Assembly: GCA_964533715.1 (NCBI GenBank)
Contig: CAZHNI010000003.1
Location: 32,170-82,374, forward strand
Direction of reading: 5' to 3'
Length of the DNA: 50,205 nucleotides
Origin: an uncultured Gammaproteobacteria bacterium
GTDB lineage: Bacteria; Patescibacteriota; Patescibacteriia; Magasanikbacterales; GWA2-37-8
Within the stretch, counting starts at the first letter, position 1, and each line of letters begins with the position of its first letter. The position numbers were made by a program, and so were the translations under genes. The notes under the pieces were generated by a model that was not told the DNA's origin, did not search any database, and saw only the letters and a program-made list of their open reading frames with translations. Shown here in pieces: positions 32,140 through 50,205 of this stretch.

Positions 32140-32199
32140 ATAATTTTAATAAAAAACATCCTAGAAATTAATTCTAGGATGTAGTATGAACCATTTTAA

Positions 32200-32457: not shown

Positions 32458-32566
32458 ATCAAAATTAACAAGTAACAATTAACAAAATATAATTGAGAGC
32501 TTCTCCAATCGGTTCGTGGCCGATTGTGTTGGAGTGACGTTAGTTTAACAAAAAGAAGTGGAAAAG

Positions 32567-32836: not shown

Positions 32837-32848
32837 AGATCATTTAAA

Positions 32849-33964: not shown

Positions 33965-34012
33965 AGCTCGCCTATTGTAACACTACTTTGGAAAAATGTC
34001 ATTAGGAATTTT

Positions 34013-34513: not shown

Positions 34514-34544
34514 AGCATAAATTAAACTTATAAAAATAGCGCCG

Positions 34545-34889: not shown

Positions 34890-35235
34890 ATATTGTTAAA
34901 ATAATGCCAAATAATATTAAAACTGTTTCAATTATCAATGGTAGCAAACCATTTTTAAAGTTATCTTGATATACTTGTGGAAAAAACATTCTACTCAATC
35001 CTAAAAACACACTAAACCATCCTAGCAACGTTATTATCAGTTGCCAACCTATAATCCATATATTGTGCCTTCTAACTATTGATAAACCGGCAATAAATAT
35101 TAGAACTCCAGACATATAAACTAATGGGACTATTTGTTGATCATATAAATTGGGATTCCATATTTTTAATTCTGAGGCAACCATCACAATTAATGTCGGT
35201 CCAATAATTCCTGCTAAAAATTTTGAATTTTCCAT
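34849..35235 (-). CDS. Hypothetical 4-TM membrane protein
   Basis: 128 aa with four hydrophobic helices. Confidence 0.5.
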   Translation of the reverse strand: MENSKFLAGIIGPTLIVMVASELKIWNPNLYDQQIVPLVYMSGVLIFIAGLSIVRRHNIWIIGWQLIITLLGWFSVFLGLSRMFFPQVYQDNFKNGLLPLIIETVLILFGIILTIFAYFPNNKNSESK

Positions 35236-35452
35236 AATTTTATCCTTGATAATTATTTAATGCTTGGCTTTCGCACAACTTCCTATAAACAAGTTTATTC
35301 AAAAATTGGCTTATTTATGCTAGTATATTAGCATAAACGTGTAATCAAAAGCAAGATTAAAGGTGCGTTTTTTGTTATAATTTTGCCCGCAAACGGGTCT
35401 TTTGTCACACTTTGCATCAATCAACAGTTATACATATCAAACAAGCCCCCTT

Positions 35453-35989
35453 ATGGAAGCAGCTCCCTCTGCCCAAGAACTCACTAAACTCATGACCCAG
35501 GCCAAGCATGGCGATAAACAGGCCTTTGCTTTGGTGTACCAAACTTGTTTTTTACCAGTGTACCGCTACATTTACCGTCGCGTGGGGCGCGCCAGCGATG
35601 CCGAAGATTTATCCCAAGCCGTTTTTATAAAGGTATATACTTCCGCATCTCAGTTTGTGGGGCAGGGCAAAAGCCCTCTCGCGTACCTTTTTACTATTGC
35701 TCGCAACAGTATCATCGATCAGTGGAAAAAAAATAACCGCCAGCCAGAAGTATCTTTGGAAACAAATGATAAAGATTTGTCCGCCGAAAACCAGCCAATT
35801 GCTGAAAAAACCGATGTTGACGCCGCCCTTGCCAAACTTTCTTTTGATCGGCAACAAGTTTTACGCCTTAAATTTTATGAAGGCTATTCCACTATAGAAA
35901 TTGCCGGCAAGTTAAACAAAACTACCGCGGCGATTCGACAAATACAGTGTCGCGCTCTCCAAGAGTTACGCGTATTATTGATTACATAA
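35453..35989 (+). CDS. ECF-type RNA polymerase sigma-70 family factor
   Basis: Region 2 'FALVYQTCFLPVYRYIYRRVGRASDAEDLSQAVFIK' and region 4 'LKFYEGYSTIEIAGKLNKTTAAIRQIQCRALQELR'. I chose the start at ATG 35453. Confidence 0.8.
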   Translation: MEAAPSAQELTKLMTQAKHGDKQAFALVYQTCFLPVYRYIYRRVGRASDAEDLSQAVFIKVYTSASQFVGQGKSPLAYLFTIARNSIIDQWKKNNRQPEVSLETNDKDLSAENQPIAEKTDVDAALAKLSFDRQQVLRLKFYEGYSTIEIAGKLNKTTAAIRQIQCRALQELRVLLIT

Positions 35990-35999
35990 CTATAAGTCG

Positions 36000-36138
36000 C
36001 GAAACGCCATTCCCCGCTTGGGCGGGGTAGGGGTGGGTGAGGTCGTTGAGTGGCCAATTGGCGGAGCTGTCTCACCCACCCCGGCTCGGTGTTATCTCGC
36101 CGCCCCGCCCAAGCGGGGAATTGCCAGAACGAGTTTCG
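36000..36138. repeat. Large GC-rich imperfect palindrome between the sigma and putative anti-sigma genes
   Basis: Outer arms cgaaac/gtttcg, 'ccattccccgcttgggcgggg' / 'ccccgcccaagcggggaattg', and inner arms 'ggggtgggtgag' / 'ctcacccacccc'. It shares 'ccccgcttg.gcgggg' with the element at 40301-40462. Confidence 0.7.
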
Positions 36139-36156
36139 TAATCGAAAATAAAAAAT

Positions 36157-37506
36157 ATGCCGTCAGAACAATTCGAAACCATTTTAGACGAAGCCTTAGC
36201 ACTTTTATCTAGCGGCAAACCAGCCGCGGAAATTGCGCGTATGTTCCCCGAGCACCAAACCGAGCTCGTGGAATTTTTGGAAACTGCGGCCAATTTAGAA
36301 ATGCACAAACAAGAGCAAAATCTTAAAGCAACATTTTCCAAAATTCTAGAAGCATTACCCGCTGTTTCTGTTGCTAAACAAAAAACATCTTTTTCTTTTA
36401 ACTCATTATTTACCAATATGGCCAAAATATTATTTTCGCGTCGTTTTGCCGCCGGGGCGCTGGGGGTGCTGCTGGTTGTTTATTCGGCTGGTTTTTTCAT
36501 ATACCAACAGGTGGTGGCTCCGCAACTTGTTGTTGCCACTGCCCCAGCTTCGCTAGGCGGGCCACAAGAATTTGGTCTAACAACAAGAACAGATTTAAAC
36601 GAAGCGTCTGTTAATCAAACAGCCCCCGGAGCGGTAGGGCAGGCCGAATATGTTGGTCTATCTGCCAAAGTAGACATGATGCCAGTTTACTACAACCCGC
36701 CCACCCCAAACGCCAACGATACGCGCGAATTTTTAAAAACCAACTATCGCGCCACACTTAAAACGCGCGATGTGGTAGAACTTGGTGGGCATGTGCAAAC
36801 GGTTATTCGTGGGTTTAAAGGCCGCGTGGATAGCGCCACACTAGATGAAAAATATGGTTATATTTCATTCGTAGTTCCAGAAAATAAATTTGATGAATTC
36901 AAAGCCGAACTCAAAAGTTTGGTTGGCAAGCGATTTTTTTCGCAAGGCGTAACAGTTGAAAATTTGTTGGGTCAAAAACAAAATATTGAGGACAACACCG
37001 CCAGCGTTACCACTGCCAAAAAAGATTTGGAAGCACAAAAAACCAAACTCACCACCTCACACAACGCCACTATCTATTCTCTCAACAAACAATTGGCCGA
37101 TGTGACCGCCCAAATTAAAGCGTATGATGAAGAAGTGAAAATAACGTCGGATAGTGTTCGCCTCGAACAAATTCGTAATTTACAAATTCCGCTGGCCACC
37201 GAACGCCTGCGCCTCCAAAAAGCAATCGCGTATGAAAATTCCGAGTTTGTCAGCCAGCGCAATTCACTTGATTGGCAAATAAAACAAACAAATAATCAGT
37301 TGTCCTCTCTTGCTAAAGAAGACAAAAATCTTATTGACAATGTCAACACCGTACAAGGTACCATCACCCTCACGTGGATTAGTATTCCCCAAATCATCGC
37401 ACTCTATGTGCCCATGCCGTGGTCGCCACTTGTTGTTGGGGTTATTATTTTGGGGTATTTAACATTAACAAGACACAAAAAGGTTGAAGTTCAGGAGGTG
37501 ATATAG
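36157..37506 (+). CDS. Putative anti-sigma/DUF4349-like membrane protein
   Basis: Position directly after the ECF sigma gene. One TM at ~aa 95-115, a beta/coiled-coil ectodomain ('YRATLKTRDVVELGGHVQTVIRGFKGRVDS') and a C-terminal TM pair, as in DUF4349. Confidence 0.55.
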   Translation: MPSEQFETILDEALALLSSGKPAAEIARMFPEHQTELVEFLETAANLEMHKQEQNLKATFSKILEALPAVSVAKQKTSFSFNSLFTNMAKILFSRRFAAGALGVLLVVYSAGFFIYQQVVAPQLVVATAPASLGGPQEFGLTTRTDLNEASVNQTAPGAVGQAEYVGLSAKVDMMPVYYNPPTPNANDTREFLKTNYRATLKTRDVVELGGHVQTVIRGFKGRVDSATLDEKYGYISFVVPENKFDEFKAELKSLVGKRFFSQGVTVENLLGQKQNIEDNTASVTTAKKDLEAQKTKLTTSHNATIYSLNKQLADVTAQIKAYDEEVKITSDSVRLEQIRNLQIPLATERLRLQKAIAYENSEFVSQRNSLDWQIKQTNNQLSSLAKEDKNLIDNVNTVQGTITLTWISIPQIIALYVPMPWSPLVVGVIILGYLTLTRHKKVEVQEVI

Positions 37507-38546: not shown

Positions 38547-38575
38547 TTGACACAGTTCTTGAATTGTATTATAAT
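38547..38575 (+). promoter_or_regulatory. Consensus promoter of TrmB-like paralogue 3 (leaderless)
   Basis: TTGACA, 17-nt spacer, TATAAT. ATG 38576 abuts the -10 element. ATG 38585 lies 9 nt after it. Confidence 0.6.
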
Positions 38576-38584
38576 ATGTCCGTT

Positions 38585-39376
38585 ATGCCAGAAACATTAA
38601 GCAATTTAGGGCTCGATGAATCAGAAGCCAAAATTTATGAGGCCCTGTTAGAATTAGGGCCAGCCACCGTCAGCCAAATCACCAGAAAAGCGGGCATTAC
38701 ACGCACTCTTGGCTACCACGTTTTGGAAAAACTTGGTTGGAAGGGCTTGGTTGACCGCGCTTCTGGCAAACAAAAAAAGATTATCTACACCGCGGAGCAT
38801 CCACAGCGATTGGTGCAATTTGTAAAAAGTCAGCGCTCCATGTGGGATCGGCGGATATCGCAAGTAGAAAGCAAGCTTCCCGAACTGGTGGCGTTATTTA
38901 GAGTAGCGGAGAAGCCGGTGGTGCGCTATCAAGAAGGAGTAGAAGGTGTAAAAAATATTTATAGCGAAACGCTAGAGGCAAAAAGCGAAATTCTTTCTAT
39001 CGCCGATATCGATGGTTGGATTAATCAGGAATCGCTGTATCGCTGGGGTCTGGATTATAACCGAGAACGCAGCCGCCGAAAAATTCACGAGCGGTTGCTC
39101 CTTTTGGATACCCCGCCCGGCCGCCGCTGGGCCGCACATAATCCCGGGTTACCCAAGTTTACCCACATTCGCTGGATTAAATTAGAAATGCTTCCCTGGC
39201 TTAAAGAATTTGGTGGCGAAATTAACATCTACGAAAACAAAGTAATGATGGTGCTATTAAAAAAACCAAATTTAATGGGTATAATGATAGAGAATTCGGC
39301 GTTGGCTAGTATCCTTAAAGGTTTATTTGAATTAGCCTGGACTGTTGCAACACCAATTAAAAAAAGAAAAGCATAA
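38585..39376 (+). CDS. TrmB-like winged-HTH transcriptional regulator (paralogue 3)
   Basis: 'LGLDESEAKIYEALLELGPATVSQITRKAGITRTLGYHVLEKLGWKGLV'. The start is set at ATG 38585 because of the promoter geometry. In-frame alternatives are 38576 and the track start 38564. Confidence 0.7.
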   Translation: MPETLSNLGLDESEAKIYEALLELGPATVSQITRKAGITRTLGYHVLEKLGWKGLVDRASGKQKKIIYTAEHPQRLVQFVKSQRSMWDRRISQVESKLPELVALFRVAEKPVVRYQEGVEGVKNIYSETLEAKSEILSIADIDGWINQESLYRWGLDYNRERSRRKIHERLLLLDTPPGRRWAAHNPGLPKFTHIRWIKLEMLPWLKEFGGEINIYENKVMMVLLKKPNLMGIMIENSALASILKGLFELAWTVATPIKKRKA

Positions 39377-40665: not shown

Positions 40666-41346
40666 CTATAGCAATTTTTGATTAATTAAATTAAAAACAA
40701 TTTTTAAACTATCGGCAATTTTTTTATTTTCAATAGTCACCCCCCACGGATTTGTATCCAGAGACAAGAAATAAATTGTGTTGTTAGTTATCAAAATTGG
40801 AGAGTAGGCAACATGCCCATTAATAGAATCTCCAAGCTGTTGGTCTGTATTTTTTAAATTGACCCCGCGCGAGCCAGCCTCCTTTATGTACCATTCTAGT
40901 ATAAGGGGGTGATTCTTTTTTAAAGATTCAATAAACCCAAAAGCATAGATATCATTAGTCAAGAGCGACTGGAGTAAAACATTCTGAACCCCAGAAAGAC
41001 CAGCATAATATCTAAATTTAGGAATATGTTTATTGCCAAAGGCAATCTCCCGTAACTGTGGCAAAACAAGCTCAACTGCATGTTTTTTTCTTTCTACATA
41101 TTTAACAATGCTTGCCGGCTCACTTGCTCGGTAAATTTTTTTAGATCCTGTATAAAGTTCTTCAACCAAGTTTTTAGAAACAAGCTCATTTAGGATGTTA
41201 TAGCAGTTTGTTCGAGCAATTTTTGTTTCACGTGAAACAATTGGAGGAGAGGATTCTCCGTTTTGGAGCAAAAAAAGATACACCGTAATTTCGGATTGAT
41301 TTAAACCAATTGTTTTAAGTTGGTTAGATATATCCATAAGTGTCAA
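40666..41346 (-). CDS. TrmB-like winged-HTH transcriptional regulator (paralogue 4)
   Basis: 'IGLNQSEITVYLFLLQNGESSPPIVSRETKIARTNCYNILNELVSKNLV'. Confidence 0.65.
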   Translation of the reverse strand: MTLMDISNQLKTIGLNQSEITVYLFLLQNGESSPPIVSRETKIARTNCYNILNELVSKNLVEELYTGSKKIYRASEPASIVKYVERKKHAVELVLPQLREIAFGNKHIPKFRYYAGLSGVQNVLLQSLLTNDIYAFGFIESLKKNHPLILEWYIKEAGSRGVNLKNTDQQLGDSINGHVAYSPILITNNTIYFLSLDTNPWGVTIENKKIADSLKIVFNLINQKLL

Positions 41347-41734
41347 AATATTTTATATCATATTTATATAATAAAGTCAAAACAAAATAAATATAAATAT
41401 AAAAATGACATAAAAAAAATTGACAAAATATAACTAAGAAAAATATTTATTCCTCATTTTGCCTCACCCGTCATCACCTTTAATTAATCAAAGTGGGTAT
41501 AATGGGCATAAGTAGTTATAAAAGCACATTTGAAAAGTCGTTCATGAGCTTGGCCAAAGTTCTTTCACAGTGGTTCGCTCTGCAGCGGGTTTTTGGTGGG
41601 GTATTCCCCGAGCAAACAAAGCCATCGAGCAGGCCTAGAAATACAGGTGGCCGCTCTGTTGCGGGAGAGTGCCGGCATGGCAATAGAGCAACATTTTATA
41701 ATTAAAAAAGATGAAAAATATATAGATTATAAAA

Positions 41735-41764
41735 TTGTCAGAGCAGTGTTTTGTATGCTATAAT
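41735..41764 (+). promoter_or_regulatory. Sigma70-type promoter of the surface operon
   Basis: TTGTCA, 18-nt spacer, TATAAT. The ATG at 41794 lies 30 nt downstream. Confidence 0.55.
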
Positions 41765-41793
41765 TTACGTCATAACAGATCTAAATTTTTGCT

Positions 41794-44127
41794 ATGTCCA
41801 ATTATCCTCGCCTTGTTGCCGCCCTTGACACACTGTCATACGTTTTATGTTTGGTCACCATTGTGGCGATGCCTCTTTTTGTAGATTCGCACCTCAGCAA
41901 CTGGTATGTGATTCCGAAACAATTTTTACTGGTTGGTCTGGTGCTTATTCAAGGAATAGTTTTTGTAATTAGAACTATAGTTTCAAAACGCGTCCTTTTT
42001 GTTCGTTCAATAGTTGATGTGCCAGTTTTTCTTATTATACTGTGTGCATTTATGTCGTCTATTTTATCGGCCGCAGTTTACGATAGCTGGCTGGGCAGAA
42101 ACGATTCATTTGTCATGAATTTTTTATATCTGGCAAGTTTGGCGTTATTTTTCTTTCTCACCTTAAACAATATCTCTACCGTGCGTCGTTGGCTCGGCGC
42201 AATCAATGCGCTTCTTATAGTAGGCGCCGGTACGGCAATCATTTTCATTTTAAAAATTGTTTTTCATTTGGATATACTCGCAAAAATAATTGGACCGGTT
42301 TGGAATACGGTTGATGTTACCAATAGCAATTTTGGTGTTTGGCTGATTGTTATTTTTATTTTATCCGCTGGGCAGTTGCTTAAAAAAAATACGTCCGTAA
42401 CTTGGCAAATGGTATATTTATTTTTTAGCATCTTATCGCTGGTGGCGGTTCTTCTCATGGGGTTTCCCATTTTATGGTGGACCATGATTGCTGGGCTCCT
42501 CATGCTCCTTTGTTTTGGTATAAGCTTTACGCATGAATCACGAGTCGTATGGCTGTCGGTATTATTTGCCGGACTTTTATTGTCGTTGGTATTTGTTATT
42601 TTCGGCATGCCAAAAGCATTGCAATCAAATGTGCCAGCCGAGGTCTCTTTGAATATTTCATCTTCATGGGAAATAGCGAAAGACACTGTTTTTTCGGGTG
42701 TTAAAAATTTTTTAGTAGGAAGTGGTCCAGGAACATTCGGAATTGATTTCTCTGCCCATCGCAATATTGATTTTAATAATGACCAGTTGGCTTGGGGGCT
42801 TCGTTTTAACCGGCCAATGAATACTGTTCTTGCTTGGCTGCCGGAAGTTGGCACGGTTGCTTTTGTTACCCTCATTTTTATTTGCGCGGTGGTGGCAGGG
42901 CACGCCCTCTTGAGCTGGCTCCGTTTTCGTTCTAATAGTCGCAACGCCAATGAAGAGGAGATGCCGCCCCACTCGCTTCCGCGAAATGAAGTATTTGTAG
43001 TGGCTATTGCTTGGGCGACGCTCACTGTAGGTGGGATGTTTAATTTTTTTGGTCCGGTGTTATGGTGGCTATGGTGGTTTCTGCTCGCTTCAACCGTAAT
43101 CGGGCTTGCTATTATTGATGGCGGTATTTTGCGCGTGAGAGAATATAACATGGAGGATGTGCCGCAATACAGCTTGTCATTTTCATTTATATCAATTGTC
43201 GCTGCCGTTGCACTATTGCTTGTGGGGATATGGGTGGCAAGATTATATCGAGCCGAGGTTGCCTATGCGGCCGCACTTCGAAGCAGTGATCACTCTAATG
43301 CGGAATCGTACCTTAATGAAGCGCTATACTATCGAAGCAATTTTGACGCGTATCATGTTGCCTTGGCGCAAGTATATTTACTTAAAGCCGTGGATGCGAG
43401 TCGGGCCAAGCAGCCTGATGTTTTGCAAGTGAGCGCCTTTTTAAGTAAAGCAGTGAACGAAGCTCGTGTCGCCACCACTCTATCGCCGCGTTCCGTTGGT
43501 ATTTGGGAAAATTTAGCTACCATGTATGAGAACGCCTCGACACTGGTAGTTGGCGCGCGCGAGTGGGTATTTAAATCACTTAACGAAGCCAACAAATTAG
43601 AACCAACTAACCCGGTTCTTTTGTGGCGTTTAGGAAATAATTATGCAGTTGATGGCAAGTGGGAGGATGCCATGAAGTTGTATGCTCAAGCCATTGATCT
43701 TAAAAAAGATTATGGTGCTGCCTATGTAGGGCTCGCTACCGCTGAGGAGCAACTCGGAAAAATTGATGAGGCCATAAATACCTATCAAACAATTTTGCCA
43801 GCGGCCGGCGGCAATAGTGATGTTTTGTTTAATTATGGACGCTTGTTATATAACCGAAACCATAAGGGCGACCGGGCAAACGCGCGAGATTTGTGGCTAG
43901 CGATAATTACAAAACAACCGGACAGTTCTAACGTATTATTTAGTCTCGGGTTATATTATGAATCGGTCAACGACAAAGTAACTGCTCTGCAGTATTATTC
44001 TAAAGTTCGTGATTTAAACCCGGACAACAAAGACATCGCGCAAAAAATTTATTCTCTGGTTGGTGCCGGCCAACCAATTTCAACACCAACCTCATCTAAA
44101 GAATTTCCTCGATCCAAACAACGTTAA
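41794..44127 (+). CDS. O-antigen ligase/polymerase-like polytopic membrane protein fused to C-terminal TPR repeats
   Basis: More than 10 TM helices with a 'FLVGSGPGTFGIDF' block. C-terminal ~300 aa of TPR-like repeats ('AYVGLATAEEQLGKIDEAINTYQ', 'FSLGLYYESVNDKVTALQYYSKV'). Confidence 0.75.
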   Translation: MSNYPRLVAALDTLSYVLCLVTIVAMPLFVDSHLSNWYVIPKQFLLVGLVLIQGIVFVIRTIVSKRVLFVRSIVDVPVFLIILCAFMSSILSAAVYDSWLGRNDSFVMNFLYLASLALFFFLTLNNISTVRRWLGAINALLIVGAGTAIIFILKIVFHLDILAKIIGPVWNTVDVTNSNFGVWLIVIFILSAGQLLKKNTSVTWQMVYLFFSILSLVAVLLMGFPILWWTMIAGLLMLLCFGISFTHESRVVWLSVLFAGLLLSLVFVIFGMPKALQSNVPAEVSLNISSSWEIAKDTVFSGVKNFLVGSGPGTFGIDFSAHRNIDFNNDQLAWGLRFNRPMNTVLAWLPEVGTVAFVTLIFICAVVAGHALLSWLRFRSNSRNANEEEMPPHSLPRNEVFVVAIAWATLTVGGMFNFFGPVLWWLWWFLLASTVIGLAIIDGGILRVREYNMEDVPQYSLSFSFISIVAAVALLLVGIWVARLYRAEVAYAAALRSSDHSNAESYLNEALYYRSNFDAYHVALAQVYLLKAVDASRAKQPDVLQVSAFLSKAVNEARVATTLSPRSVGIWENLATMYENASTLVVGAREWVFKSLNEANKLEPTNPVLLWRLGNNYAVDGKWEDAMKLYAQAIDLKKDYGAAYVGLATAEEQLGKIDEAINTYQTILPAAGGNSDVLFNYGRLLYNRNHKGDRANARDLWLAIITKQPDSSNVLFSLGLYYESVNDKVTALQYYSKVRDLNPDNKDIAQKIYSLVGAGQPISTPTSSKEFPRSKQR

Positions 44128-44130
44128 TCT

Positions 44131-44769
44131 ATGTGGCAAAAAATTAGATTACCAGTAATTTTGGGCGGCCTCTTATTGTTGATTAGTCGGCCTCTTTTGG
44201 CTAACGCGATTATGACATCAACTAATTATTATATTTATGCCGATACAGTTGATACCGGAGGGTCGGTAGCGACCAGCGCAACCTATAGCCTCCAAGATAC
44301 AATTGGAGAAACTACGAGCGATGTAGCCACCAGTTCAAGCTACACCATTCGTGGCGGTTATCAGGGTATGGAACTTGGTACCATCTCTTTACAGCTGAGT
44401 TCCGCGACAGTCAATCTGGGCACGCTAGTAAGTGGGCAGGTCTCCTCGGCGAGCTCAATTGCAACCGTTAGTACCGATTCACTTACGGGGTACACATTAT
44501 CGGTGAGTAGTGTGAGTGGAACAAGTATTACAAGCGTGAGTGATGGATCGGTAAGTGCCAATTCTGAAGAATACGGTTTGGCGGTATCTGGGGATGATCG
44601 TTTCTTTTCTGATGATCGGGGTATCTCGCCCGGCCTGGTCTTGGCCGCGTCCAGCACGGCCGTTTCGGCTAGCGCTACTACACTTACCTTTAAAGCCTCA
44701 ATGAGTAGCGGTTCGTCCGCCGGGTCATATAGTCAGACTGTTGTTTTGGGGGCCTCAGCAAATTTATAA
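44131..44769 (+). CDS. Secreted Ser/Thr-rich all-beta protein (candidate surface subunit)
   Basis: Signal peptide ending ANA. Repeated 'S.(N/T)Y.(I/L)....GG' motifs ('TSTNYYIYADTVDTGGSVATSATYSLQDTIGE...SSSYTIRGGYQ'). 'TDSLTGYTLSVSS'. C-terminus 'AGSYSQTVVLGASANL'. Lies 3 nt after the upstream gene. Confidence 0.6.
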   Translation: MWQKIRLPVILGGLLLLISRPLLANAIMTSTNYYIYADTVDTGGSVATSATYSLQDTIGETTSDVATSSSYTIRGGYQGMELGTISLQLSSATVNLGTLVSGQVSSASSIATVSTDSLTGYTLSVSSVSGTSITSVSDGSVSANSEEYGLAVSGDDRFFSDDRGISPGLVLAASSTAVSASATTLTFKASMSSGSSAGSYSQTVVLGASANL

Positions 44770-44794
44770 TTGTTATTTTTAGGTTATAGGTTAT

Positions 44795-45691
44795 ATGGTA
44801 GCACGTCGGGTATTTTTTGGTCTCATGTGTCTCAGTCTCTACCTTATCACGGCCTCGCCAGTCTCGGCTTTTTCCATTAGTCCATTGCGCTATACCGTGG
44901 ATATTGATGCAGGTAAGACGCGCGGCCTCCCAATAAAAATTGTTAATTCAGAATTAGAAAAAAAAACGTATCATCTTAAAGTGGTTGGAGTGAGGCAAGA
45001 TGAATTTGGCCATCCGATTTTTGGTACAGAATTTGACCCAGCCGAAAAATGGGTAGTGCCAGAAAAATCATTTATACAATTAGAAAAAAACGAATCAGCC
45101 ACTGTTTTTTTTAATCTTGTTGTTCCCGCAGGGGCTAATCCGGGGGCGCATTATCTTGGTTTGGCAGCGGAATCAGATGCAGAAAAAGGAACTGGCAACA
45201 CGCTGACTGGGCGTTTAGTTACACTTCTTATTGTGCGCGTGGCTGGCAAAGTACAGGAAGGGCTTGAAGTTAGAGGCTGGCAAGCGCCCGCGGTAACAAT
45301 AAGCGGAAGGTGGCCAATCGTCGTATCATTTTTTAATGCCGGTACCGTTGCGGTGCCACTATCGGGGGAAGTGGTTGTACAGAATTGGTATCAAAAAGAA
45401 TTATTAAAAAAACCACTCGTTCTAGGTAATAATTTAGTGCCAGGGGCATTTCGAAAAGTAGAGAGTGTGGTTGATGCCGGGGCCGTGTTACATTTTCCAG
45501 CATGGTATAAAATTACGGGAAAAATTAGTTATGGGCAGACAAAGCAAGTGGTTAAAACTACAGCAACGCTATGGTATTTTCCAGTTTGGTTTTGTGTTAG
45601 TTTATTTGTGGTAGGCTGTGGTCTGATATGGTTAGTGATATCGCGCATCCGAAAAAGAAAATCTCAAAAAATTTCCAAACAATTTGTATAA
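44795..45691 (+). CDS. Secreted beta-rich protein with a C-terminal TM anchor and basic tail (DUF916-like layout, possible chaperone/assembly factor)
   Basis: Signal peptide ending VSA, 'FSISPLRYTVDIDAGKTRGLPIKIVNSE', and C-terminal 'WYFPVWFCVSLFVVGCGLIWLVISRIRKRK'. Confidence 0.6.
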   Translation: MVARRVFFGLMCLSLYLITASPVSAFSISPLRYTVDIDAGKTRGLPIKIVNSELEKKTYHLKVVGVRQDEFGHPIFGTEFDPAEKWVVPEKSFIQLEKNESATVFFNLVVPAGANPGAHYLGLAAESDAEKGTGNTLTGRLVTLLIVRVAGKVQEGLEVRGWQAPAVTISGRWPIVVSFFNAGTVAVPLSGEVVVQNWYQKELLKKPLVLGNNLVPGAFRKVESVVDAGAVLHFPAWYKITGKISYGQTKQVVKTTATLWYFPVWFCVSLFVVGCGLIWLVISRIRKRKSQKISKQFV

Positions 45692-48600
45692 CAAAAGTAC
45701 TGTGCGCACATCTTCAAAAGTTTTTGTAATAATTTTGTTTAGCTTCGTGGTTTCCGGAGCCCGTTTTTTATTGGCGCAAGCCGTTAGCACTAGCACGCAA
45801 AGTCTTAATGTTACGGTAACGGTGCCGGACAATGGCGGCGGTGGAGGCGGAGGTGGCGGAGGTGGGGGCGGCGGACAGCCAAATAACCCGCCCAGCATTT
45901 CTAATGTTGTTTCGGTTTTAACATATACCACCGCGAAAATTACTTGGAGTGCCAGCGATAGTGATGGTCAAGTTGCCGGGAGCGCTTTTGAATATGGGCT
46001 TACTAATGGATATGGAACGTCTGCCCAAGTCAGCGGTAACTACCAGGTACAGCTATCATCACTTGCCACTAACACGGTGTATTATTATAAAATTTCTGTT
46101 TCTGATAATAGTGGTAACACAACTAATTATACAAGTTCGTTCCAAACACCGCAGTACGTTCCTCCACCGGATGTAACTCCACCAGTCATTTCTAACATTG
46201 TTGTCGACCCAGGCGCAACCACATCAAGTATCAGTTGGCAAACTGATGAAAATTCGGATAGCCAAGTGCAATATGGCGCCACCAATGTTTACGGCAGCAC
46301 AGCATTTGATGCAGCCAAAATTTTGTTGCACAATTTTTTAATTTTAAACTTAGTTCCTAATACCACCTATCACTATCGCTTATTATCTTCAGATGTCTCT
46401 GGTAATACTGCAAATACAAACGATGACATATTTATTACCAGAAAAGATAATATTCCTCCGCCCGATGTGGGTAACCTGGTCATTACTACTGTCAATAATA
46501 ATAGTTTTAAACTCGACTGGACAAATCCAAATCTCAGCGCTGTTCCTGATTTTGTGGATGTAAAAATAGTTAGAAAAATAAATAGTCAACCACAAAATAG
46601 TGCTGACGGTACGGTTGTGTACACCGGTTCTGCAGAAACATTTTTAGACCAAAATGTAGCTCCAAATACGCTATATTTTTATACAATTTTTTCACACGAT
46701 ACGTCTGATAACTTTAGTGCCGGTACATTTGTGAGTGGAAAAATTTTACAAAATATTCCCGAAATTTGTGATAACGGTATTGACGATGACAACAACGGAA
46801 AAATAGATTGTACCGATCCGGCGTGCGTCAATGATTTAAAATGTATTCAACCAAAAAAAGAAATTTGTAACAACGGTATTGATGACAATGGAGATGGTAA
46901 GGTAGATTGTGCGGATCCGGAATGTGCCCTGGAGGCATACTGTAAAGCTCCGCAAGAAATATGTAATAATGGGATTGATGACAACAACAACGGAAAAATA
47001 GATTGTGCCGACGACGAGTGTATTGGAAACATTTTTTGTGGCGGCCCAAAAAAAATAATTGAAATTTGTGACAATAATATTGATGACAACAATAACGGTA
47101 AAACAGATTGCGCCGATTCTGACTGTATTGGTTTTCCTGCTTGCGCGAGTCAAAATCCTATAAAACCAGAGGAGCCAGGTGGGGTTGGTAGTATTCCGCA
47201 AGCAACCAGCAGCGTACCTAATTTTGCTAAGATAAGCATAAGCGAACTAACATTTTTAACTGGGAATCGCACCATTGTTCTCGAACCAAAAAACAATGTC
47301 ATAACGAGTTTGGCCGGCACAACACTTACCATTTTGTTGCCAGCCTCTCGCTTGGTTAATCATCCAAAATCAATCGTGCTCAATATTGATAGTCGCGAAG
47401 ATCATCAATTTACTCTCCCGGCACAATCTGTAAATTATAGTACCGATATCATGATGCCGCAGATTGGTGTGCACTCCGCGGGAATAATAATTGACTATGG
47501 GCTTGGTCAGCGCGATGTTATAAATTTTGGATTGCAGTCTGTTGCACTTGGAATGGTAAAAATTGATGGTGCCTCTGCTTTTGGGGTTACCGTTACGTTG
47601 CTTAACGCGCAAAATCAACCTGTTGATACCACCCCAAGCGGCAGCGCAAACCCACATATTACCGATGAAAATGGCACCTATGGCTGGGTGGTTCCAAATG
47701 GTCGCTACATTTTGGAGGCAAAAAAAAATGGATATTATGATCGTTTAACTCCAGCCTTTACCGTTGATAACAATGTAGTTAATGCAGAATTAAATTTGTT
47801 TGCTCAACCGGCAAAATTAAGCGACGTAGTCGACCCCGATGCCACTTTATCTGAAAATATACAAAATGTTGCAAAAAATTTAGCGCAAAAAACTTCTGTT
47901 GTCGCCTCGCTCACCGCAGAAAAAGTGGTTGATACAGCCAAGGTGGTACAGGAAGTTGCTGATAACCCAAAGGTAGAAAATGCCGCCAGTAATGTGGTGG
48001 CCCCAGCCACCGTTAGTATTGTGGTAGCCAGTACCGTTCCTTTTCTTACCTTTGCCGATGTTTTACCATTTTTACGCCTACTTTTCTTGCAGCCTCTTAT
48101 GCTTCTCGGTCTTCGCCGTCGTACGGGTTGGGGGCAGGTTTATAATTCTTTAAACAAATTACCAGTGGATTTAGCAACAGTTCGTTTAATTAGTAGTTTG
48201 AGCGGCAAGGTTATTCAATCAAAAGTTACAGATAAACAAGGCCGCTATGCTTTTGTGGTGGAGCCGGGGGAATATCGCGTTGAGGTTGCCAAAAGTAGTA
48301 TGGTTTTTCCATCCAAACTTTTAGCAAAATTTAAAGATGATGGCAAAAAAACTGATATTTACCACGGTGAGACAATACGTGTTACAGAAGAAGATGCTGT
48401 AATTACAGCCAATATTCCACTTGACCCAATAGGTGAACACAAAAAACCAGGACGTCTTTTGTTTGAGAGAGTTGGTCGTAAAGTGCAATGGGTTTTATCT
48501 TGGATTGGTTTTGGGGTTACTGCTATGTCGCTTCTCATCGCGCCGCGATGGTATGTATGGGTTCTGCTTGGGGTACATATTATCCTGACCCTTGTTTTTT

Positions 48601-48947
48601 GGCGTTTGGCGAGGCCGCCAAAAGTTAAAAGTTGGGGGTATGTGTATGACGCTGCCACCAAACAACCAATTTCTAGGGCCGTAGCCCGCTTGTTTAGCTC
48701 CCAATTTAATAAGTTGGTTGGTACACAAATTACCGATCGTCATGGGCGATATTACTTTCTGGCCGGAGATAATCAGTATTTTTTGACATATCAACACCAT
48801 GAATATTCTCCAAAAAAGAGCGAGATTGTTGATTTGAGTGGTAAAGATGCCGAAACGATTGCCGTGAATGTTGGTTTAGAGTCTCAAAAAGTTGGTCTTT
48901 CATCTAAAGATGAACAGCCTCCTATCCAAGAAGTGGGGAAAAAGTAA
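45684..48947 (+). CDS. 1087-aa surface protein: signal peptide, Gly14 linker, 3 FN3-like domains, 4 Cys-bracketed Ca-loop repeats, 3 CarboxypepD_reg-like modules interleaved with TM segments
   Basis: Signal 'FVIILFSFVVSGARFLLAQA'. G14 at 45834-45875. FN3-like 'ITWSASD...YYYKISVSD', 'ISWQTDE...YHYRLLSSD', 'LDWTNP...YFYTIFSHD'. Repeats 'EICNNGIDDNNNGKIDCAD.EC'. 'DENGTYGWVVPNGRYILEA', 'DKQGRYAFVVEPGEYRVEV', 'DRHGRYYFLAGDNQYFL'. The start is ambiguous (TTG 45684 or GTG 45702) and overlaps the upstream gene. Confidence 0.75.
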   Translation: MYNKSTVRTSSKVFVIILFSFVVSGARFLLAQAVSTSTQSLNVTVTVPDNGGGGGGGGGGGGGGQPNNPPSISNVVSVLTYTTAKITWSASDSDGQVAGSAFEYGLTNGYGTSAQVSGNYQVQLSSLATNTVYYYKISVSDNSGNTTNYTSSFQTPQYVPPPDVTPPVISNIVVDPGATTSSISWQTDENSDSQVQYGATNVYGSTAFDAAKILLHNFLILNLVPNTTYHYRLLSSDVSGNTANTNDDIFITRKDNIPPPDVGNLVITTVNNNSFKLDWTNPNLSAVPDFVDVKIVRKINSQPQNSADGTVVYTGSAETFLDQNVAPNTLYFYTIFSHDTSDNFSAGTFVSGKILQNIPEICDNGIDDDNNGKIDCTDPACVNDLKCIQPKKEICNNGIDDNGDGKVDCADPECALEAYCKAPQEICNNGIDDNNNGKIDCADDECIGNIFCGGPKKIIEICDNNIDDNNNGKTDCADSDCIGFPACASQNPIKPEEPGGVGSIPQATSSVPNFAKISISELTFLTGNRTIVLEPKNNVITSLAGTTLTILLPASRLVNHPKSIVLNIDSREDHQFTLPAQSVNYSTDIMMPQIGVHSAGIIIDYGLGQRDVINFGLQSVALGMVKIDGASAFGVTVTLLNAQNQPVDTTPSGSANPHITDENGTYGWVVPNGRYILEAKKNGYYDRLTPAFTVDNNVVNAELNLFAQPAKLSDVVDPDATLSENIQNVAKNLAQKTSVVASLTAEKVVDTAKVVQEVADNPKVENAASNVVAPATVSIVVASTVPFLTFADVLPFLRLLFLQPLMLLGLRRRTGWGQVYNSLNKLPVDLATVRLISSLSGKVIQSKVTDKQGRYAFVVEPGEYRVEVAKSSMVFPSKLLAKFKDDGKKTDIYHGETIRVTEEDAVITANIPLDPIGEHKKPGRLLFERVGRKVQWVLSWIGFGVTAMSLLIAPRWYVWVLLGVHIILTLVFWRLARPPKVKSWGYVYDAATKQPISRAVARLFSSQFNKLVGTQITDRHGRYYFLAGDNQYFLTYQHHEYSPKKSEIVDLSGKDAETIAVNVGLESQKVGLSSKDEQPPIQEVGKK
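46761..47150 (+). repeat. Four tandem ~100-nt coding repeats (Cys-rich D/N-rich modules)
   Basis: The units start at 46761, 46858, 46957 and 47060 with 'gaaat(t/a)tgt(g/a)a(t/c)aa...attga(c/t)ga(t/c)'. Confidence 0.8.
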
Positions 48948-48954
48948 ATTTTAT

Positions 48955-48987
48955 AAAAAATCGCGTCGTAAAATGGCACGATTTTTT
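48955..48987 (+). terminator. Weak A/T-rich hairpin terminator after the 1087-aa gene
   Basis: aaaaaatcgcg / cacgatttttt (1 mismatch), ending in T6. Confidence 0.4.
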
Positions 48988-49087
48988 AGTTACAAATAAG
49001 TAACAATTTTTCGCGAAGTTATCAACATGTTAACATGTTTTATAATCATAGAAAAAGGTGTATAATAGCTATCAAATACACCGTGAT

Positions 49088-50205
49088 ATGGTCGCACAGA
49101 AAAAGGTAAACAAAGAACTGAAAAAAAGCCAGCCATTTTTTGTTTTTGGTGTACTTTTTGCGTTGTCATTTTTTGTCGTTGCCTGGTTTTTTATGCCACG
49201 CCCTGCCCGAGCTGCGTCTGCCCCAGCGGTTGTTACGTATCAAGGAAAATTATTGGTTAACGGGGTAGCGGCCACGACTACGCAAAGTATGAAAATTTTA
49301 TTGTATGATGCCGCAACCAACGGCACTATACTGTATTCTGCTGGCGGCACAATTGGAGCCCCCGCAGCGATTAATGTGACGCCAACCAGCGGCTTATTTA
49401 GTGTGGATTTGGGAGGCACTGGGACTAACCCGCTTGATCCAAGAATTTTTCAAGATAATGGGTCTGTATATTTAGAAGTACAAGTTGGTTCGGAGACTCT
49501 TACGCCACGTAAACAAATTACGGCCGCACCATATGCCTATAATGCCACGTTTTTAGATGGTGTTGGTTCGACTAGTACTGCTTCAACTTCGCCGTACATT
49601 CCTGTGTCAGACAGCCAAGGAAATTTTAATTTTAATCGTGTTACTTCAACTGGTTTTTATGTTTACGGGAATTCTCAGTTTACAGCAACCACTACCTTTG
49701 CTACAACCACTGTGGCGAGTTCAACTATTAATACCGCCAACGTCACCTCACTATTTGTAAGCGGCAACAGTACTTTTGGTACGCTAGCAGTAGGAGCCAC
49801 AACTATGAGTGGGCTCGCCACTCTTTCAGGCGGCTTCATCTCTTCTGCCTCATCATCAATTGCTTCCACACTCTCGGTTACTGGTGCTATCACTGGTTCA
49901 TCAACTCTCACTATCGGCACCGGAGGTAATTTAGGCAAATTCTATGTTGATTCGAGTGGGAATGTGTCAGCTTCCGGCACACTCGCTGTCTTTGGGGCTT
50001 CAACCTTAGCAGGTCTTACGAATTTTAGCTCCGGGTTTATTGCTAATGCCTCAAGTTCAATTGGAGCGGGTTTACAAATATCCGGTGCATTAAGTGCTTC
50101 TGGGACTCTTCAAGTAGCAGGGGCCTCGGAATTGGGGTCTACTCTTAATGTAACCGGTCTCTCCACCCTCTCATCAGGCTTCATCTCCTCCGCCTCGTCC
50201 ACGGT
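49088..50205 (+). CDS. Secreted fibre-like repeat protein; the 3' end lies outside the window (absent from the supplied ORF track)
   Basis: I translated it manually from ATG 49088 to nt 50205 and found no stop (372 codons). Signal/TM 'FFVFGVLFALSFFVVAWFFMPRPARA'. 'YLEVQVGSETLTPRKQITAAPYAYNA' module. Then Ser/Thr/Gly/Ala-rich periodic 'S.L.V.G..TL.G.(T/S).(F/L)SSGFI..ASSS' repeats. Confidence 0.7.
   Translation, partial: MVAQKKVNKELKKSQPFFVFGVLFALSFFVVAWFFMPRPARAASAPAVVTYQGKLLVNGVAATTTQSMKILLYDAATNGTILYSAGGTIGAPAAINVTPTSGLFSVDLGGTGTNPLDPRIFQDNGSVYLEVQVGSETLTPRKQITAAPYAYNATFLDGVGSTSTASTSPYIPVSDSQGNFNFNRVTSTGFYVYGNSQFTATTTFATTTVASSTINTANVTSLFVSGNSTFGTLAVGATTMSGLATLSGGFISSASSSIASTLSVTGAITGSSTLTIGTGGNLGKFYVDSSGNVSASGTLAVFGASTLAGLTNFSSGFIANASSSIGAGLQISGALSASGTLQVAGASELGSTLNVTGLSTLSSGFISSASST

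What the first reader, a model, noticed from the sequence alone, without database searches (positions are those of the whole stretch)
41735..50205. Operon of Sec-signal envelope proteins: candidate undescribed cell-surface assembly or adhesion system
**Seen in sequence.** One promoter (41735-41764) is followed by four plus-strand genes with spacings of 3, 25 and -8 nt.
- Gene 1 is a Wzy/O-antigen-ligase-like polytopic protein fused to about 300 aa of TPR.
- Gene 2 is a 212-aa Ser/Thr-rich beta protein with reiterated S-x-N/T-Y motifs and a pilin/WxL-like C-terminal strand (AGSYSQTVVLGA).
- Gene 3 is a 298-aa beta protein with an N-terminal signal and a C-terminal TM plus basic tail.
- Gene 4 is a 1087-aa multi-domain anchor.

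After a weak terminator and its own promoter, a fifth gene encodes a fibre-like protein that runs off the window. The last four products have signal peptides ending in AxA; the first is polytopic.

**Inference.** The subunit, anchored beta protein and giant anchor recall the layout of Firmicute WxL/DUF916 (Csc) surface clusters and chaperone-type pilus loci. However, there is no sortase, usher, LPXTG motif or type IV pilus component. The cluster is instead coupled to a Wzy-like/TPR membrane protein. In a reduced, possibly episymbiotic genome this could be a host-attachment or envelope-building apparatus.
Basis: partly seen in the sequence, partly recalled or inferred. Interest (0 to 1): 0.8.

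Follow-up and report, generated by a model that had tools for sequence, protein, structure and literature searches.

The report
Minimal chaperone-built surface appendage operon
This operon from an ultrasmall (Patescibacteria) bacterium encodes a stripped-down relative of the recently described "Pam" pilus, in which a membrane-anchored chaperone probably clips a small pilin-like protein onto a giant membrane anchor; it is a new variant of a system first reported in 2026, not a new kind of machine.

Summary
Four tightly packed plus-strand genes (spacings 3, 25 and -8 nt) lie between a near-consensus promoter and a strong terminator hairpin. A fifth fibre gene follows.

- **g3 (298 aa)** models confidently (pLDDT 93.8) as two Ig-like domains plus a C-terminal TM helix. 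Its best structural match is Enterococcus WxLIP (DUF916), followed by chaperone-usher chaperones. It is homologous to the chaperone-slot protein (PamC/D position) of a genuine pam operon.
- **g2 (212 aa)** is a PamT-like pilin. Its matches to the NCBIfam Pam models are below threshold; hhalign links it to a Pam pilin C-domain.
- **g4** carries a conserved N-terminal amphipathic strand plus Gly linker, like PamR's predicted donor strand. It has no sequence match to PamR.
- **g1** is a 13-TM, distantly Wzy_C-like protein with an external TPR domain.

Among close relatives, g1-g2-g3 co-occur almost without exception (54/54 and 48/50 metagenomic loci). g4 and/or a g5-like fibre follow.

There is no usher, sortase, LPXTG motif, WxL motif or two-domain pilin.

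Verdict: a minimal Parcubacterial variant of the Pam/WxLIP-type usher-less donor-strand system. The mechanism is inferred, not shown.

The parts
41735..41764 (+). Sigma-70-type promoter-like site (TTGTCA-18-TATAAT, TG extension), 30 nt upstream of the g1 ATG
   Evidence: 11 of 12 positions match, the best site in 41000-50205. This is a consensus match only; the total site count is not above shuffles.
41794..44127 (+). g1: 777-aa polytopic membrane protein. About 13 TM segments (residues 1-483) with a large external loop at residues 273-352 carrying the family motif GSGPGTF. The TPR domain (residues about 484-777) is predicted to lie outside the cell. Distant Wzy_C (O-antigen ligase superfamily) relative.
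   Evidence: TPR Pfam hits. Hydropathy plus the positive-inside pattern read from the sequence. 722 representative homologues with the same architecture. 5 of 57 members hit Wzy_C, best E 1.5e-10. The L014 orthologue has a weak Wzy_C hit. Found upstream of g2 in 54 of 54 assessable metagenomic loci.
44131..44769 (+). g2: 212-aa PamT-like pilin subunit. Signal peptide at residues 1-26. Conserved N-terminal region at residues 27-78 (44209-44364) with three S-x-x-Y motifs. Amphipathic strand at residues 83-90 (44377-44400). Pam-pilin-type Ig-like C-domain at residues 91-212 (44401-44766), ending in the conserved SAN-hydrophobic C-terminus.
   Evidence: NCBIfam PamT E 5.5e-10, 39 bits against a cut-off of 240. 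hhalign to the L002 PamT-like protein: 84% probability, E 7e-6. hhalign to a genuine Pam pilin C-domain: 78% probability, E 1.9e-5. AF2 pLDDT above 95 for residues 80-212 and below 55 for residues 27-75. Foldseek hits are weak (best E 5e-3) but dominated by CU pilins such as CfaB, CsuE, FimA and PapA. 68 homologues. The mature protein is 23% Ser and 13% Thr, with no Trp.
44795..45691 (+). g3: 298-aa membrane-anchored chaperone candidate of the PamC/D-WxLIP (DUF916) superfamily. Signal peptide at residues 1-25. Ig-like domain 1 at residues 26-149 (44870-45241), whose last strand is RLVTLLIVRVAG. Ig-like domain 2 at residues 157-261 (45263-45577). TM helix at residues 264-286 (45584-45652), then a basic tail.
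   Evidence: AF2 pLDDT 93.8, pTM 0.80. Foldseek: WxLIP 9i1y/9i25 at E 8e-14, then RbmA, CsuC, CfaA, Caf1M, FimC and SafB. Profile against PDB: EfmWxLIP1 at E 4.6e-4. Homologue P0005 (E 3.4e-11) sits in the chaperone slot of a genuine pam operon. P0037, in the same slot upstream of PamR, carries Pfam WxLIP_PGBD.
45684..48947 (+). g4: 1087-aa multi-domain anchor. Signal peptide at residues 1-33. FnIII-like region at residues 70-347 (45891-46724). Four acidic double-disulfide repeats at residues 362-493 (46767-47162). CarboxypepD_reg-like domain at residues 628-698. TM hairpin at residues 771-810 (47994-48113). CarboxypepD_reg at residues 817-871. TM hairpin at residues 934-976 (48483-48611). CarboxypepD_reg at residues 985-1062.
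   Evidence: It corresponds to two separate genes in L001 (311 + 945 aa) and L006 (375 + 1061 aa), i.e. a gene fusion or fission. It is the gene after g3 in 23 of 36 assessable loci.
45795..45875 (+). g4 N-terminal candidate donor strand TQSLNVTVTVP (residues 38-48) followed by DN and a 14-Gly linker (residues 51-64, 45834-45875)
   Evidence: Every g4 orthologue examined has, after its signal peptide, a strand with alternating hydrophobic residues, usually ending in Pro. This is followed by a Gly/Ser/Pro linker or a Cys-rich module (8 loci; 21 distinct metagenomic orthologues). Genuine PamR of L002 begins GLVGTIPSPPPS. The donor-strand role is inferred, not shown.
48954..48988 (+). Intrinsic-terminator hairpin with an A-tract and U6, closing the g1-g4 unit
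   Evidence: -13.3 kcal/mol, z = -4.37, 0 of 200 shuffles fold as well.
49019..49066 (+). Two overlapping promoter-like sites upstream of g5
   Evidence: 10 of 12 positions match at each site.
49088..50205 (+). g5 (partial, more than 372 aa): signal or anchor sequence, a conserved roughly 150-aa N-terminal domain starting PAVVTYQGKLL, then Ser/Thr/Gly-rich fibre-like repeats; runs off the window
   Evidence: Homologous N-domains lie directly downstream of g4 (10 of 13 loci) or directly downstream of g3 (12 of 36 loci) in related contigs. Complete relatives are 1100-3400 aa. No Pam-pilin domain and no PHROG hit.

Best explanation
g1-g4, with g5 as a conserved neighbour, form a minimal Parcubacterial variant of the usher-less, chaperone-assisted donor-strand surface-assembly systems. 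Known members are the CPR Pam pilus and, through the shared DUF916/WxLIP-type chaperone, the Firmicute WxL clusters.

**Proposed mechanism**
1. All products are exported or inserted by Sec. This is read from the sequence.
2. g3 is a two-Ig-domain protein tethered to the membrane by its C-terminal helix. It captures newly exported g2 and completes g2's pilin-type Ig-like C-domain with one of its own strands. The fold and homology are shown; the function is inferred.
3. The N-terminal amphipathic strand of g4, held on a flexible Gly14 tether, then displaces the chaperone by donor-strand exchange. This locks the PamT-like subunit onto the distal end of a long FnIII-rich stalk, which is fixed in the membrane by two TM hairpins. 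This step is inferred from a motif conserved in about 29 orthologues and from the analogy with PamR. The result would be a 'tip on an anchor' rather than a long filament.
4. g1, a Wzy_C-like 13-TM protein with an outward-facing TPR domain, most likely modifies (O-glycosylates) or otherwise processes the Ser/Thr-rich exported partners. This step is a low-confidence inference.
5. g5 is a giant fibre encoded alongside.

The likely role is attachment to a host or partner cell, or envelope architecture.
For: - **g3 fold.** AF2 pLDDT 93.8. Foldseek top hits are WxLIP at E 8e-14, then chaperone-usher chaperones.
- **g3 homology.** The g3-family profile hits EfmWxLIP1 at E 4.6e-4. g3 is homologous (E 3.4e-11) to P0005. 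P0005 lies between a Pam pilin (163 bits, above the cut-off of 55) and PamR (357 bits, above the cut-off of 300) in L002.
- **g2.** The NCBIfam PamT hit has E 5.5e-10. hhalign to the PamT-like protein and to the Pam pilin C-domain reaches the very C-terminus. The orthologue in L014 aligns along the full length of Pam_pilin_C (E 3.2e-6). The Foldseek list is dominated by CU pilins. The N-terminal 50 residues are highly conserved yet unstructured in the monomer model.
- **g4.** The N-terminal strand plus linker is conserved in all orthologues examined and resembles the N-terminus of PamR.
- **Rosetta-stone link.** g4 is split into two genes in L001 and L006.
- **Intermediate locus.** L013 has a g2-like gene, a two-domain Pam-like pilin, a chaperone and a g4-like gene.
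- **Co-occurrence.** g1 lies upstream in 54 of 54 loci; g3 lies downstream in 48 of 50; g4 or a g5-like gene comes next in 35 of 36.
- **Operon structure.** Spacing, promoter and terminator are.
- **Published model.** The Pam assembly model is in the preprint. WxLIP strand insertion into WxL was predicted by AF2 in PMC10599100.
Against: - All Pam-model hits for g2 are far below the curated cut-offs: 39 bits against 240, and 14 bits against 55.
- g3 itself does not hit Pfam DUF916.
- g4 has no detectable similarity to PamR.
- Foldseek E-values for g2 are weak; none is at or below 1e-3.
- No complex was modelled, so neither the chaperone-subunit complementation nor the g4-g2 strand exchange is shown.
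- In 12 of 36 related loci g4 is missing next to g3 and a g5-like gene follows directly. The g4 strand therefore cannot be the universal acceptor partner.
- Two-domain pilins could be encoded outside the 50-kb window.
- The glycosylation role of g1 rests only on distant Wzy_C similarity in a minority of homologues.
- There are no expression or imaging data.
Confidence: 0.55

Rival explanations
1. True filament. g2 is the polymerising major subunit. Its own strand (residues 83-90, in the position of the PamA/B linker strand) or its conserved N-terminal region is donated to the next g2. g3 chaperones each step, and g4 only terminates and anchors the fibre.
For: - g2 has an architecture like a reduced PamA/B: a small N-terminal region, an amphipathic strand and then the Pam-type C-domain.
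- g2's strand 83-90 has the same alternating pattern as the g4 strand.
- g2 is the first and probably most highly expressed exported product, and it is far better conserved (about 50% identity) than g3 (about 33%).
Against: - The preprint describes PamT, the closest named relative, as a tip subunit that lacks a donor linker.
- AF2 places strand 85-89 confidently within the monomer. This fits an intrinsic A-strand as well as it fits self-complementation.
Confidence: 0.22
2. WxL-type, non-filamentous wall-associated complex. g3 acts as a WxLIP-like holder that keeps g2 and the large partners g4 and g5 on the cell surface, as proposed for Firmicute Csc/WxL clusters, with no donor-strand exchange onto g4.
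For: - The best structural and only significant PDB sequence match of the g3 family is WxLIP.
- Saccharimonadia relatives are annotated as DUF916/WxLIP.
- The small-protein, large-protein and membrane-Ig-protein layout resembles WxL clusters.
Against: - Mature g2 has no Trp, so the defining dual Trp-x-Leu motif is absent.
- The WxL chain of 9i25 is not among the top 50 fold matches of g2; CU pilins are.
- There is no LPXTG protein.
- g2 aligns with the Pam pilin C-domain.
Confidence: 0.12
3. Envelope-glycan or S-layer biogenesis locus. g1 (Wzy_C-like polymerase or ligase) is the functional core, and g2-g5 are merely its glycoprotein substrates or unrelated surface proteins.
For: - Wzy_C hits occur in 5 of 57 g1 homologues and in the L014 orthologue.
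- g2 and g5 are Ser/Thr-rich.
- The g1 family is much larger (722 representative clusters) than the g2 family.
Against: - More distant loci (L006, L013) keep g2-g3-g4 without g1.
- No glycosyltransferase, flippase or sugar-nucleotide genes lie in or next to the operon.
- The g2/g3 pair has pilin and chaperone folds.
Confidence: 0.06

Closest known systems
Pam pilus system of CPR bacteria (Ca. Mycosynbacter amalyticus; Troman et al., bioRxiv 10.64898/2026.03.03.709456; NCBIfam NF058578, NF058579, NF058581)
   Same: - Patescibacterial, Sec-exported and usher-less.
- Includes a pilin with a Pam-type Ig-like C-domain (g2, PamT-like).
- Includes a PapD-like two-Ig chaperone retained by a C-terminal TM helix; g3 is homologous to the chaperone-slot (PamC/D-position) protein.
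- Includes a membrane anchor with FnIII-type domains and an N-terminal strand (the logic of g4 matches that of PamR).
- A large fibre-like gene lies nearby.
   Different: - No two-domain major pilins (PamA/B/E) in the locus or the window.
- Only one chaperone.
- No PamR homologue. The anchor is instead a 1087-aa protein with four TM segments, acidic disulfide repeats and CarboxypepD_reg domains.
- An extra, strictly linked Wzy_C-like/TPR membrane protein (g1).
- Parcubacterial rather than Saccharimonadia or Microgenomatia.
- No ATP-synthase neighbourhood.
- All sequence matches are below the curated thresholds.
Firmicute WxL / Csc clusters with WxLIP (DUF916-DUF3324-TM; PMC10599100; PDB 9i1y, 9i25)
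   Same: - g3 shares the WxLIP architecture: signal peptide, two perpendicular Ig-like domains and a C-terminal TM helix.
- WxLIP is g3's top structural match (E 8e-14).
- The operon pairs this protein with one small and one or two very large secreted proteins.
- WxLIP is predicted to insert a strand into its partner.
   Different: - No WxL domain: mature g2 lacks Trp altogether.
- No LPXTG or sortase component.
- g3 itself is below the Pfam DUF916 threshold.
- The partner has a pilin-type rather than a WxL-type fold.
Classical and archaic chaperone-usher pili (Pap/Fim, CFA/I, Csu, Caf1)
   Same: - The g3 model superposes on CsuC, CfaA, Caf1M, FimC and SafB (E 1e-7 to 1e-10).
- The g2 C-domain weakly matches CfaB, CsuE, FimA and PapA.
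- The inferred mechanism is donor-strand complementation followed by donor-strand exchange.
   Different: - No outer-membrane usher and no outer membrane.
- The chaperone is membrane-tethered.
- No detectable sequence homology.
Wzy_C superfamily (WaaL O-antigen ligases, Wzy polymerases, PglL/PilO pilin O-oligosaccharyltransferases), relevant to g1 only
   Same: - Polytopic protein with a large external loop between late TM segments.
- A minority of family members reach Pfam Wzy_C (best E 1.5e-10).
- Co-operonic with a Ser/Thr-rich pilin, as PilO/TfpO is.
   Different: - g1 itself has no Wzy_C hit and no sequence match in the PDB.
- It carries a roughly 300-aa C-terminal extracytoplasmic TPR domain.
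- The catalytic residues have not been identified.

Membership tests
Pam pilus system (CPR) | [quoted passage not shown] | tested here: inconclusive
   g2 scores 14 bits, E 0.031. The orthologue in L014 aligns along the full length at 27 bits, E 3.2e-6. hhalign of the g2 family to a genuine Pam pilin C-domain gives 78% probability, E 1.9e-5, aligned to the C-terminus. Homology is likely, but the curated cut-off is not met.
Pam pilus system (CPR) | PamT equivalog (NF058579, cut-off 240 bits) | tested here: not met
   g2 scores 39 bits, E 5.5e-10, matching only model positions 9-132. hhalign to the PamT-like protein of L002 gives 84% probability. g2 is PamT-like in architecture but not an equivalog.
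Pam pilus system (CPR) | Membrane-anchored PapD/FimC-like chaperone (PamC/PamD) | tested here: met
   The g3 model has two Ig domains plus a TM helix at pLDDT 93.8, and it matches CU chaperones and WxLIP. g3 is homologous to P0005, which occupies the chaperone slot of a genuine pam operon. P0037 occupies the same slot upstream of PamR at 410 bits.
Pam pilus system (CPR) | Two-domain major pilins (PamA/B/E) with a linker donor strand | tested here: not met
   No further Pam-pilin or g2-like ORF occurs anywhere in the 50-kb window by tblastn or hmmsearch. The rest of the genome could not be examined. The related locus L013 does carry one.
Pam pilus system (CPR) | PamR: RbmA-like 2xFnIII anchor with an N-terminal strand and a C-terminal TM (NF058578, cut-off 300 bits) | tested here: not met
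   g4 and its N-terminal 327 residues have no hit at E up to 10. Only analogous features are present: an N-terminal strand plus linker, FnIII-like domains and TM segments.
Pam pilus system (CPR) | Assembly into an extracellular filament by donor-strand exchange | not testable with these tools
   This needs multimer modelling, cryo-EM or cryo-ET. Only single-chain predictions were available here.
WxL / Csc cluster (Firmicutes) | WxLIP protein: DUF916 (PF06030) plus DUF3324 Ig-like domains plus a TM helix | tested here: inconclusive
   Fold and architecture match: 9i1y and 9i25 are the top hits at E 8e-14, and the profile hits EfmWxLIP1 at E 4.6e-4. g3 itself has no PF06030 hit. Only its Saccharimonadia relatives do.
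WxL / Csc cluster (Firmicutes) | At least two WxL-domain proteins with the dual Trp-x-Leu motif | tested here: not met
   The only Trp in g2 is residue 2, in the signal peptide. No WxL structure appears among g2's top 50 fold matches.
WxL / Csc cluster (Firmicutes) | LPXTG (sortase-anchored) CscD-type protein | tested here: not met
   No LP.TG motif occurs in g1-g5.
Chaperone-usher pili | Outer-membrane usher | tested here: not met
   No usher-like product occurs in the operon or among the Pfam or NCBIfam hits. The same holds in the syntenic loci.
Wzy_C / O-antigen ligase superfamily (g1) | Pfam PF04932 match in the membrane domain | tested here: inconclusive
   g1 has no hit at E up to 1. Five of 57 homologues hit, best E 1.5e-10. 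The L014 orthologue has a weak hit. There is no PDB sequence match.
Wzy_C / O-antigen ligase superfamily (g1) | At least 10 TM segments with a large extracytoplasmic loop carrying conserved residues | tested here: met
   There are 12 to 13 hydropathy segments. The loop at residues 273-352 carries G309 and G311, which are invariant across the family. The topology is a manual positive-inside reading, not a dedicated predictor.

The most novel reading that the evidence does not exclude
The locus defines a distinct, widespread Parcubacterial 'zero-length pilus' module. A single PamT-like subunit is loaded by a WxLIP-type membrane chaperone directly onto the tethered N-terminal donor strand of a giant polytopic anchor, or of a giant fibre in the variant lacking g4. 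The subunit is modified by a dedicated Wzy_C-TPR protein O-glycosyltransferase. Together with the DUF916 link, this would unite Firmicute WxL clusters and CPR Pam pili into one ancient monoderm, usher-less donor-strand assembly superfamily.
Probability: 0.3. Interest if true: 0.7.

Novelty: new variant of a known kind. Interest (0 to 1): 0.55.

Why it matters
**Reach of the Pam system.** Pam pili were described only in 2026, mainly from Saccharimonadia and Microgenomatia. This locus shows that a recognisable but pared-down relative is conserved in Parcubacteria, a huge and uncultured group whose means of host attachment is unknown.

**A simple test case.** The operon has one subunit, one chaperone and one anchor. 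That makes it the simplest available system for testing how donor-strand exchange can work without an usher or an outer membrane.

**Link to Firmicutes.** The chaperone family overlaps Pfam DUF916/WxLIP. The Pam preprint does not discuss this link. It suggests that the poorly understood WxL surface clusters of Enterococcus, Listeria and Lactobacillus use the same principle.

**A testable modification enzyme.** The strict linkage to a Wzy_C-like/TPR protein points to a candidate pilin-modifying enzyme that experiments could address.

Tried and rejected
- **Exact-sequence contig look-up for g3:** not on record, so the window could not be extended to complete g5.
- **PDB sequence searches:** single-sequence searches with g2, g3 and the g1 TM domain found nothing useful. 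A g2-family profile and a TPR-free g1 profile also found nothing. If Pam pilin structures are in the PDB copy, they were not matched.
- **Pfam and NCBIfam on g3:** no family.
- **PamR model on the g4 N-terminus and on the split orthologues:** no hit.
- **g5 as a 'large WxL-like' protein with a Pam-pilin C-domain:** rejected. hmmsearch with the g2 profile finds nothing in complete g5-like proteins.
- **g5 as a phage tail fibre:** no PHROG hit. The chromosomal synteny with RmuC and YchF argues against a prophage.
- **GC-rich segment 41493-41705 as a structured RNA:** no Rfam hit at E up to 1, fold z = -1.08, and not conserved in related loci.
- **The search for related loci with diverse alignments:** failed for lack of conserved stretches. 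Narrower queries worked.

Full report
**1. Observation**

- **Promoter.** A TTGTCA-18-TATAAT site with a TG extension lies at 41735-41764, 30 nt upstream of g1. It is the best promoter-like site in the region, but it is only a consensus match.
- **Terminator.** After g4 there is a hairpin at 48954-48988 followed by U6. It folds far better than shuffled sequence (z = -4.37).
- **g5.** It has its own promoter-like sites.
- **Operon.** g1-g4 therefore look like one transcription unit, with g5 as a separate, adjacent one.
- **Context.** The surrounding genes are ordinary chromosomal ones: holA, a GGDEF protein, RmuC, an ECF sigma factor, TrmB regulators and tRNAs.

**2. What the proteins are**

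*g3 (298 aa)*
- With a 119-sequence alignment it models at pLDDT 93.8 as a signal peptide, two beta-sandwich domains and a C-terminal TM helix.
- Foldseek against the PDB ranks the Enterococcus faecium WxLIP structures 9i1y and 9i25 first (E 8e-14).
- RbmA and a long series of chaperone-usher chaperones follow: CsuC, CfaA, Caf1M, FimC and SafB.
- A profile of the family also finds EfmWxLIP1 by sequence (E 4.6e-4).

*g2 (212 aa)*
- It has no Pfam family. It does hit the NCBIfam model 'CPR-type pilus protein PamT' (E 5.5e-10, 39 bits, cut-off 240).
- That hit led to the 2026 preprint describing the Pam pilus of Ca. Mycosynbacter amalyticus. The Pam system comprises:
  - pilins with a truncated Ig-like C-domain, assembled by donor-strand exchange;
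  - PapD-like chaperones PamC/D, which are held in the membrane by a C-terminal helix;
  - a single-domain tip pilin, PamT;
  - an RbmA-like anchor, PamR, with an N-terminal strand;
  - no usher.

*Link between g3 and the Pam system*
- g3's distant homologue P0005 (E 3.4e-11 against 5.8 billion sequences) lies in L002.
- In L002 it sits between a Pam pilin (163 bits, cut-off 55) and PamR (357 bits, cut-off 300), with a PamT-like gene upstream.
- A second such protein, P0037, lies directly upstream of PamR (410 bits). It carries Pfam WxLIP_PGBD, i.e. DUF916.
- The chaperone-slot (PamC/D-position) proteins, WxLIP and g3 therefore appear to belong to one superfamily. The preprint does not mention this connection.

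*Link between g2 and Pam pilins*
- hhalign aligns the g2 family with the PamT-like protein of L002 (84% probability). It also aligns it with the C-domain of the L002 Pam pilin, right to the C-terminus (78% probability, E 1.9e-5).
- The AF2 model of g2 is confident for residues 80-212 and unstructured for the highly conserved residues 27-75.
- Its PDB fold matches are weak (best E 5e-3) but almost all are chaperone-usher pilins.

*g4 (1087 aa)* comprises, in order:
- a signal peptide;
- the strand SLNVTVTVP;
- a run of 14 glycines;
- three FnIII-like domains;
- four acidic double-disulfide repeats;
- three CarboxypepD_reg-like domains interleaved with two TM hairpins.

In L001 and L006 the N-terminal part and the C-terminal part of g4 are separate genes. 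Every orthologue examined begins with the same kind of short alternating-hydrophobic strand. This covers 8 loci, plus 21 distinct metagenomic sequences. The strand usually ends in Pro and is followed by a flexible or Cys-rich linker. PamR of L002 starts the same way (GLVGTIPSPPPS). No sequence similarity between g4 and PamR is detectable.

*g1 (777 aa)*
- It has about 13 TM segments, a large external loop, and a TPR domain that the positive-inside pattern places outside the cell (plus my own reading of the sequence).
- Its family has 722 representative clusters, nearly all with the same architecture.
- Five of 57 members, and the L014 orthologue, reach Pfam Wzy_C. g1 itself does not.

*g5*
- It is a fibre-like repeat protein with a conserved N-terminal domain.
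- It has no Pam-pilin domain and no PHROG match.

**3. Conservation**

Ten distinct loci were recovered by protein look-ups and the genome scan. Sixty more came from a metagenome scan. Together they show the same arrangement.

| Relationship | Count among assessable metagenomic loci |
|---|---|
| g1 upstream of g2 | 54 of 54 |
| g3 downstream of g2 | 48 of 50 |
| Next gene after g3 is g4 | 23 of 36 |
| Next gene after g3 is g5-like | 12 of 36 |
| No recognisable next gene after g3 | 1 of 36 |
| g5-like gene follows g4 | 10 of 13 |

- These loci were found through close g2 homologues (about 34-65% identity over the matched part, mostly above 40%), so they sample one clade.
- More distant loci (L006, L013) keep g2-g3-g4 but lack g1.
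- L013 adds a two-domain Pam-like pilin. It looks like an intermediate between a canonical pam operon and this minimal form.
- Named relatives are Parcubacteria or Patescibacteria group bacteria.
- RmuC upstream and YchF downstream recur, which indicates vertical inheritance.

**4. Mechanism**

- **Shown.** Operon structure; export signals; a WxLIP/CU-chaperone-like fold and the Pam-operon homology for g3; Pam-type homology for g2 (below threshold but consistent); the conserved N-terminal strand and linker on g4; strict co-occurrence.
- **Inferred.**
  - g3 transiently completes the Ig-like domain of g2.
  - The tethered g4 strand then replaces g3 by donor-strand exchange, displaying g2 at the tip of a membrane-fixed stalk.
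  - g1 modifies or processes the Ser/Thr-rich exported partners.
  - The assembly serves attachment or envelope architecture.
- **Main rival.** g2 itself polymerises through its strand at residues 83-90.
- **Observation the preferred model does not cover.** Related loci that lack g4 imply that a g5-like fibre may serve as an alternative partner.

**5. Comparison and verdict**

The locus works like a Pam pilus or WxL cluster but fails several membership tests:
- no PamA/B/E pilins in the window;
- no PamR;
- no WxL motif and no LPXTG motif;
- no usher;
- all curated score cut-offs missed.

It is best filed as a new, minimal Parcubacterial variant of a recently described kind of system.

Noticed in passing
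L002 4009-5010 and L015 27-1004; proteins P0005-P0122: The membrane-anchored chaperone-slot proteins (PamC/D position) of Saccharimonadia pam operons carry Pfam PF06030 (DUF916 / WxLIP_PGBD). Public sources annotate them as WxL-interacting proteins. The Pam preprint never mentions WxL or DUF916, so the CPR Pam system and the Firmicute WxL clusters appear to share a homologous chaperone.
   Followed up: partly
L013 8001-14566: An intermediate locus. It has a g2-like 304-aa protein, a 339-aa two-domain pilin with a full-length (sub-threshold) Pam_pilin_C match, a 320-aa chaperone, a g4-like 1184-aa protein lacking the N-terminal strand-plus-linker motif, and then a 3377-aa LVIVD fibre protein. 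There is no g1.
   Followed up: partly
L010, L017, L022, L026, L031, L036, L040-L042, L044, L049, L050, L054: A variant of the operon in which the g5-like giant fibre gene follows g3 directly and no g4 is found within up to 8 kb downstream. All g5-like proteins start, right after the signal-peptide cleavage site, with an almost invariant P-x-I-I/V-T-Y-Q-G-K-L-L strand.
   Followed up: partly
window 41493-41705: A GC-rich roughly 210-nt stretch in an otherwise AT-rich intergenic region, preceded by an extended -10-like TGGGTATAAT. It has no Rfam match and no unusual folding energy (z = -1.08), and it is not conserved upstream of g1 in related loci.
   Followed up: yes
window 45834-45875: The 14-Gly linker of g4 is encoded by mixed GGN codons, not a pure repeat. 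Orthologues have 5-11 Gly, Pro-rich linkers or Cys-rich modules at this position, so linker length and type vary while the preceding strand is conserved. The antisense ORF 45632-45931, with its poly-Pro run, is an artefact of this tract.
   Followed up: partly
window 38564-39376 and 40666-41346 (minus strand): Two TrmB-family regulators flank a tRNA-Arg(CCT)/tRNA-Ala(CGC) pair and a NUDIX gene. The second is transcribed divergently from g1. A TrmB gene lies upstream of g1 in some related loci (L012 and L047 on the opposite strand, L011 on the same strand), so it is a possible regulator of the operon.
   Followed up: partly
window 31045-37506: Relative to most related contigs, where RmuC lies 1-4 kb upstream of g1, the window has extra genes between RmuC (32849-33964) and g1. 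These include an ECF sigma factor (35402-35989) followed by a DUF4349 protein (36157-37506). A GGDEF protein (31045-32139) lies just before RmuC.
   Followed up: no
L008 6107-6463 and L012 3942-4301: A free-standing LAGLIDADG homing-endonuclease ORF (118-119 aa) lies just upstream of g1 in two related genomes but not in the window.
   Followed up: no
L011 (CAYUHX010000002.1): A contig carrying the complete g1-g5 cluster is titled 'uncultured Gammaproteobacteria bacterium'. Its gene content matches the Patescibacteria loci, so the MAG label is probably wrong or the bin is contaminated.
   Followed up: no
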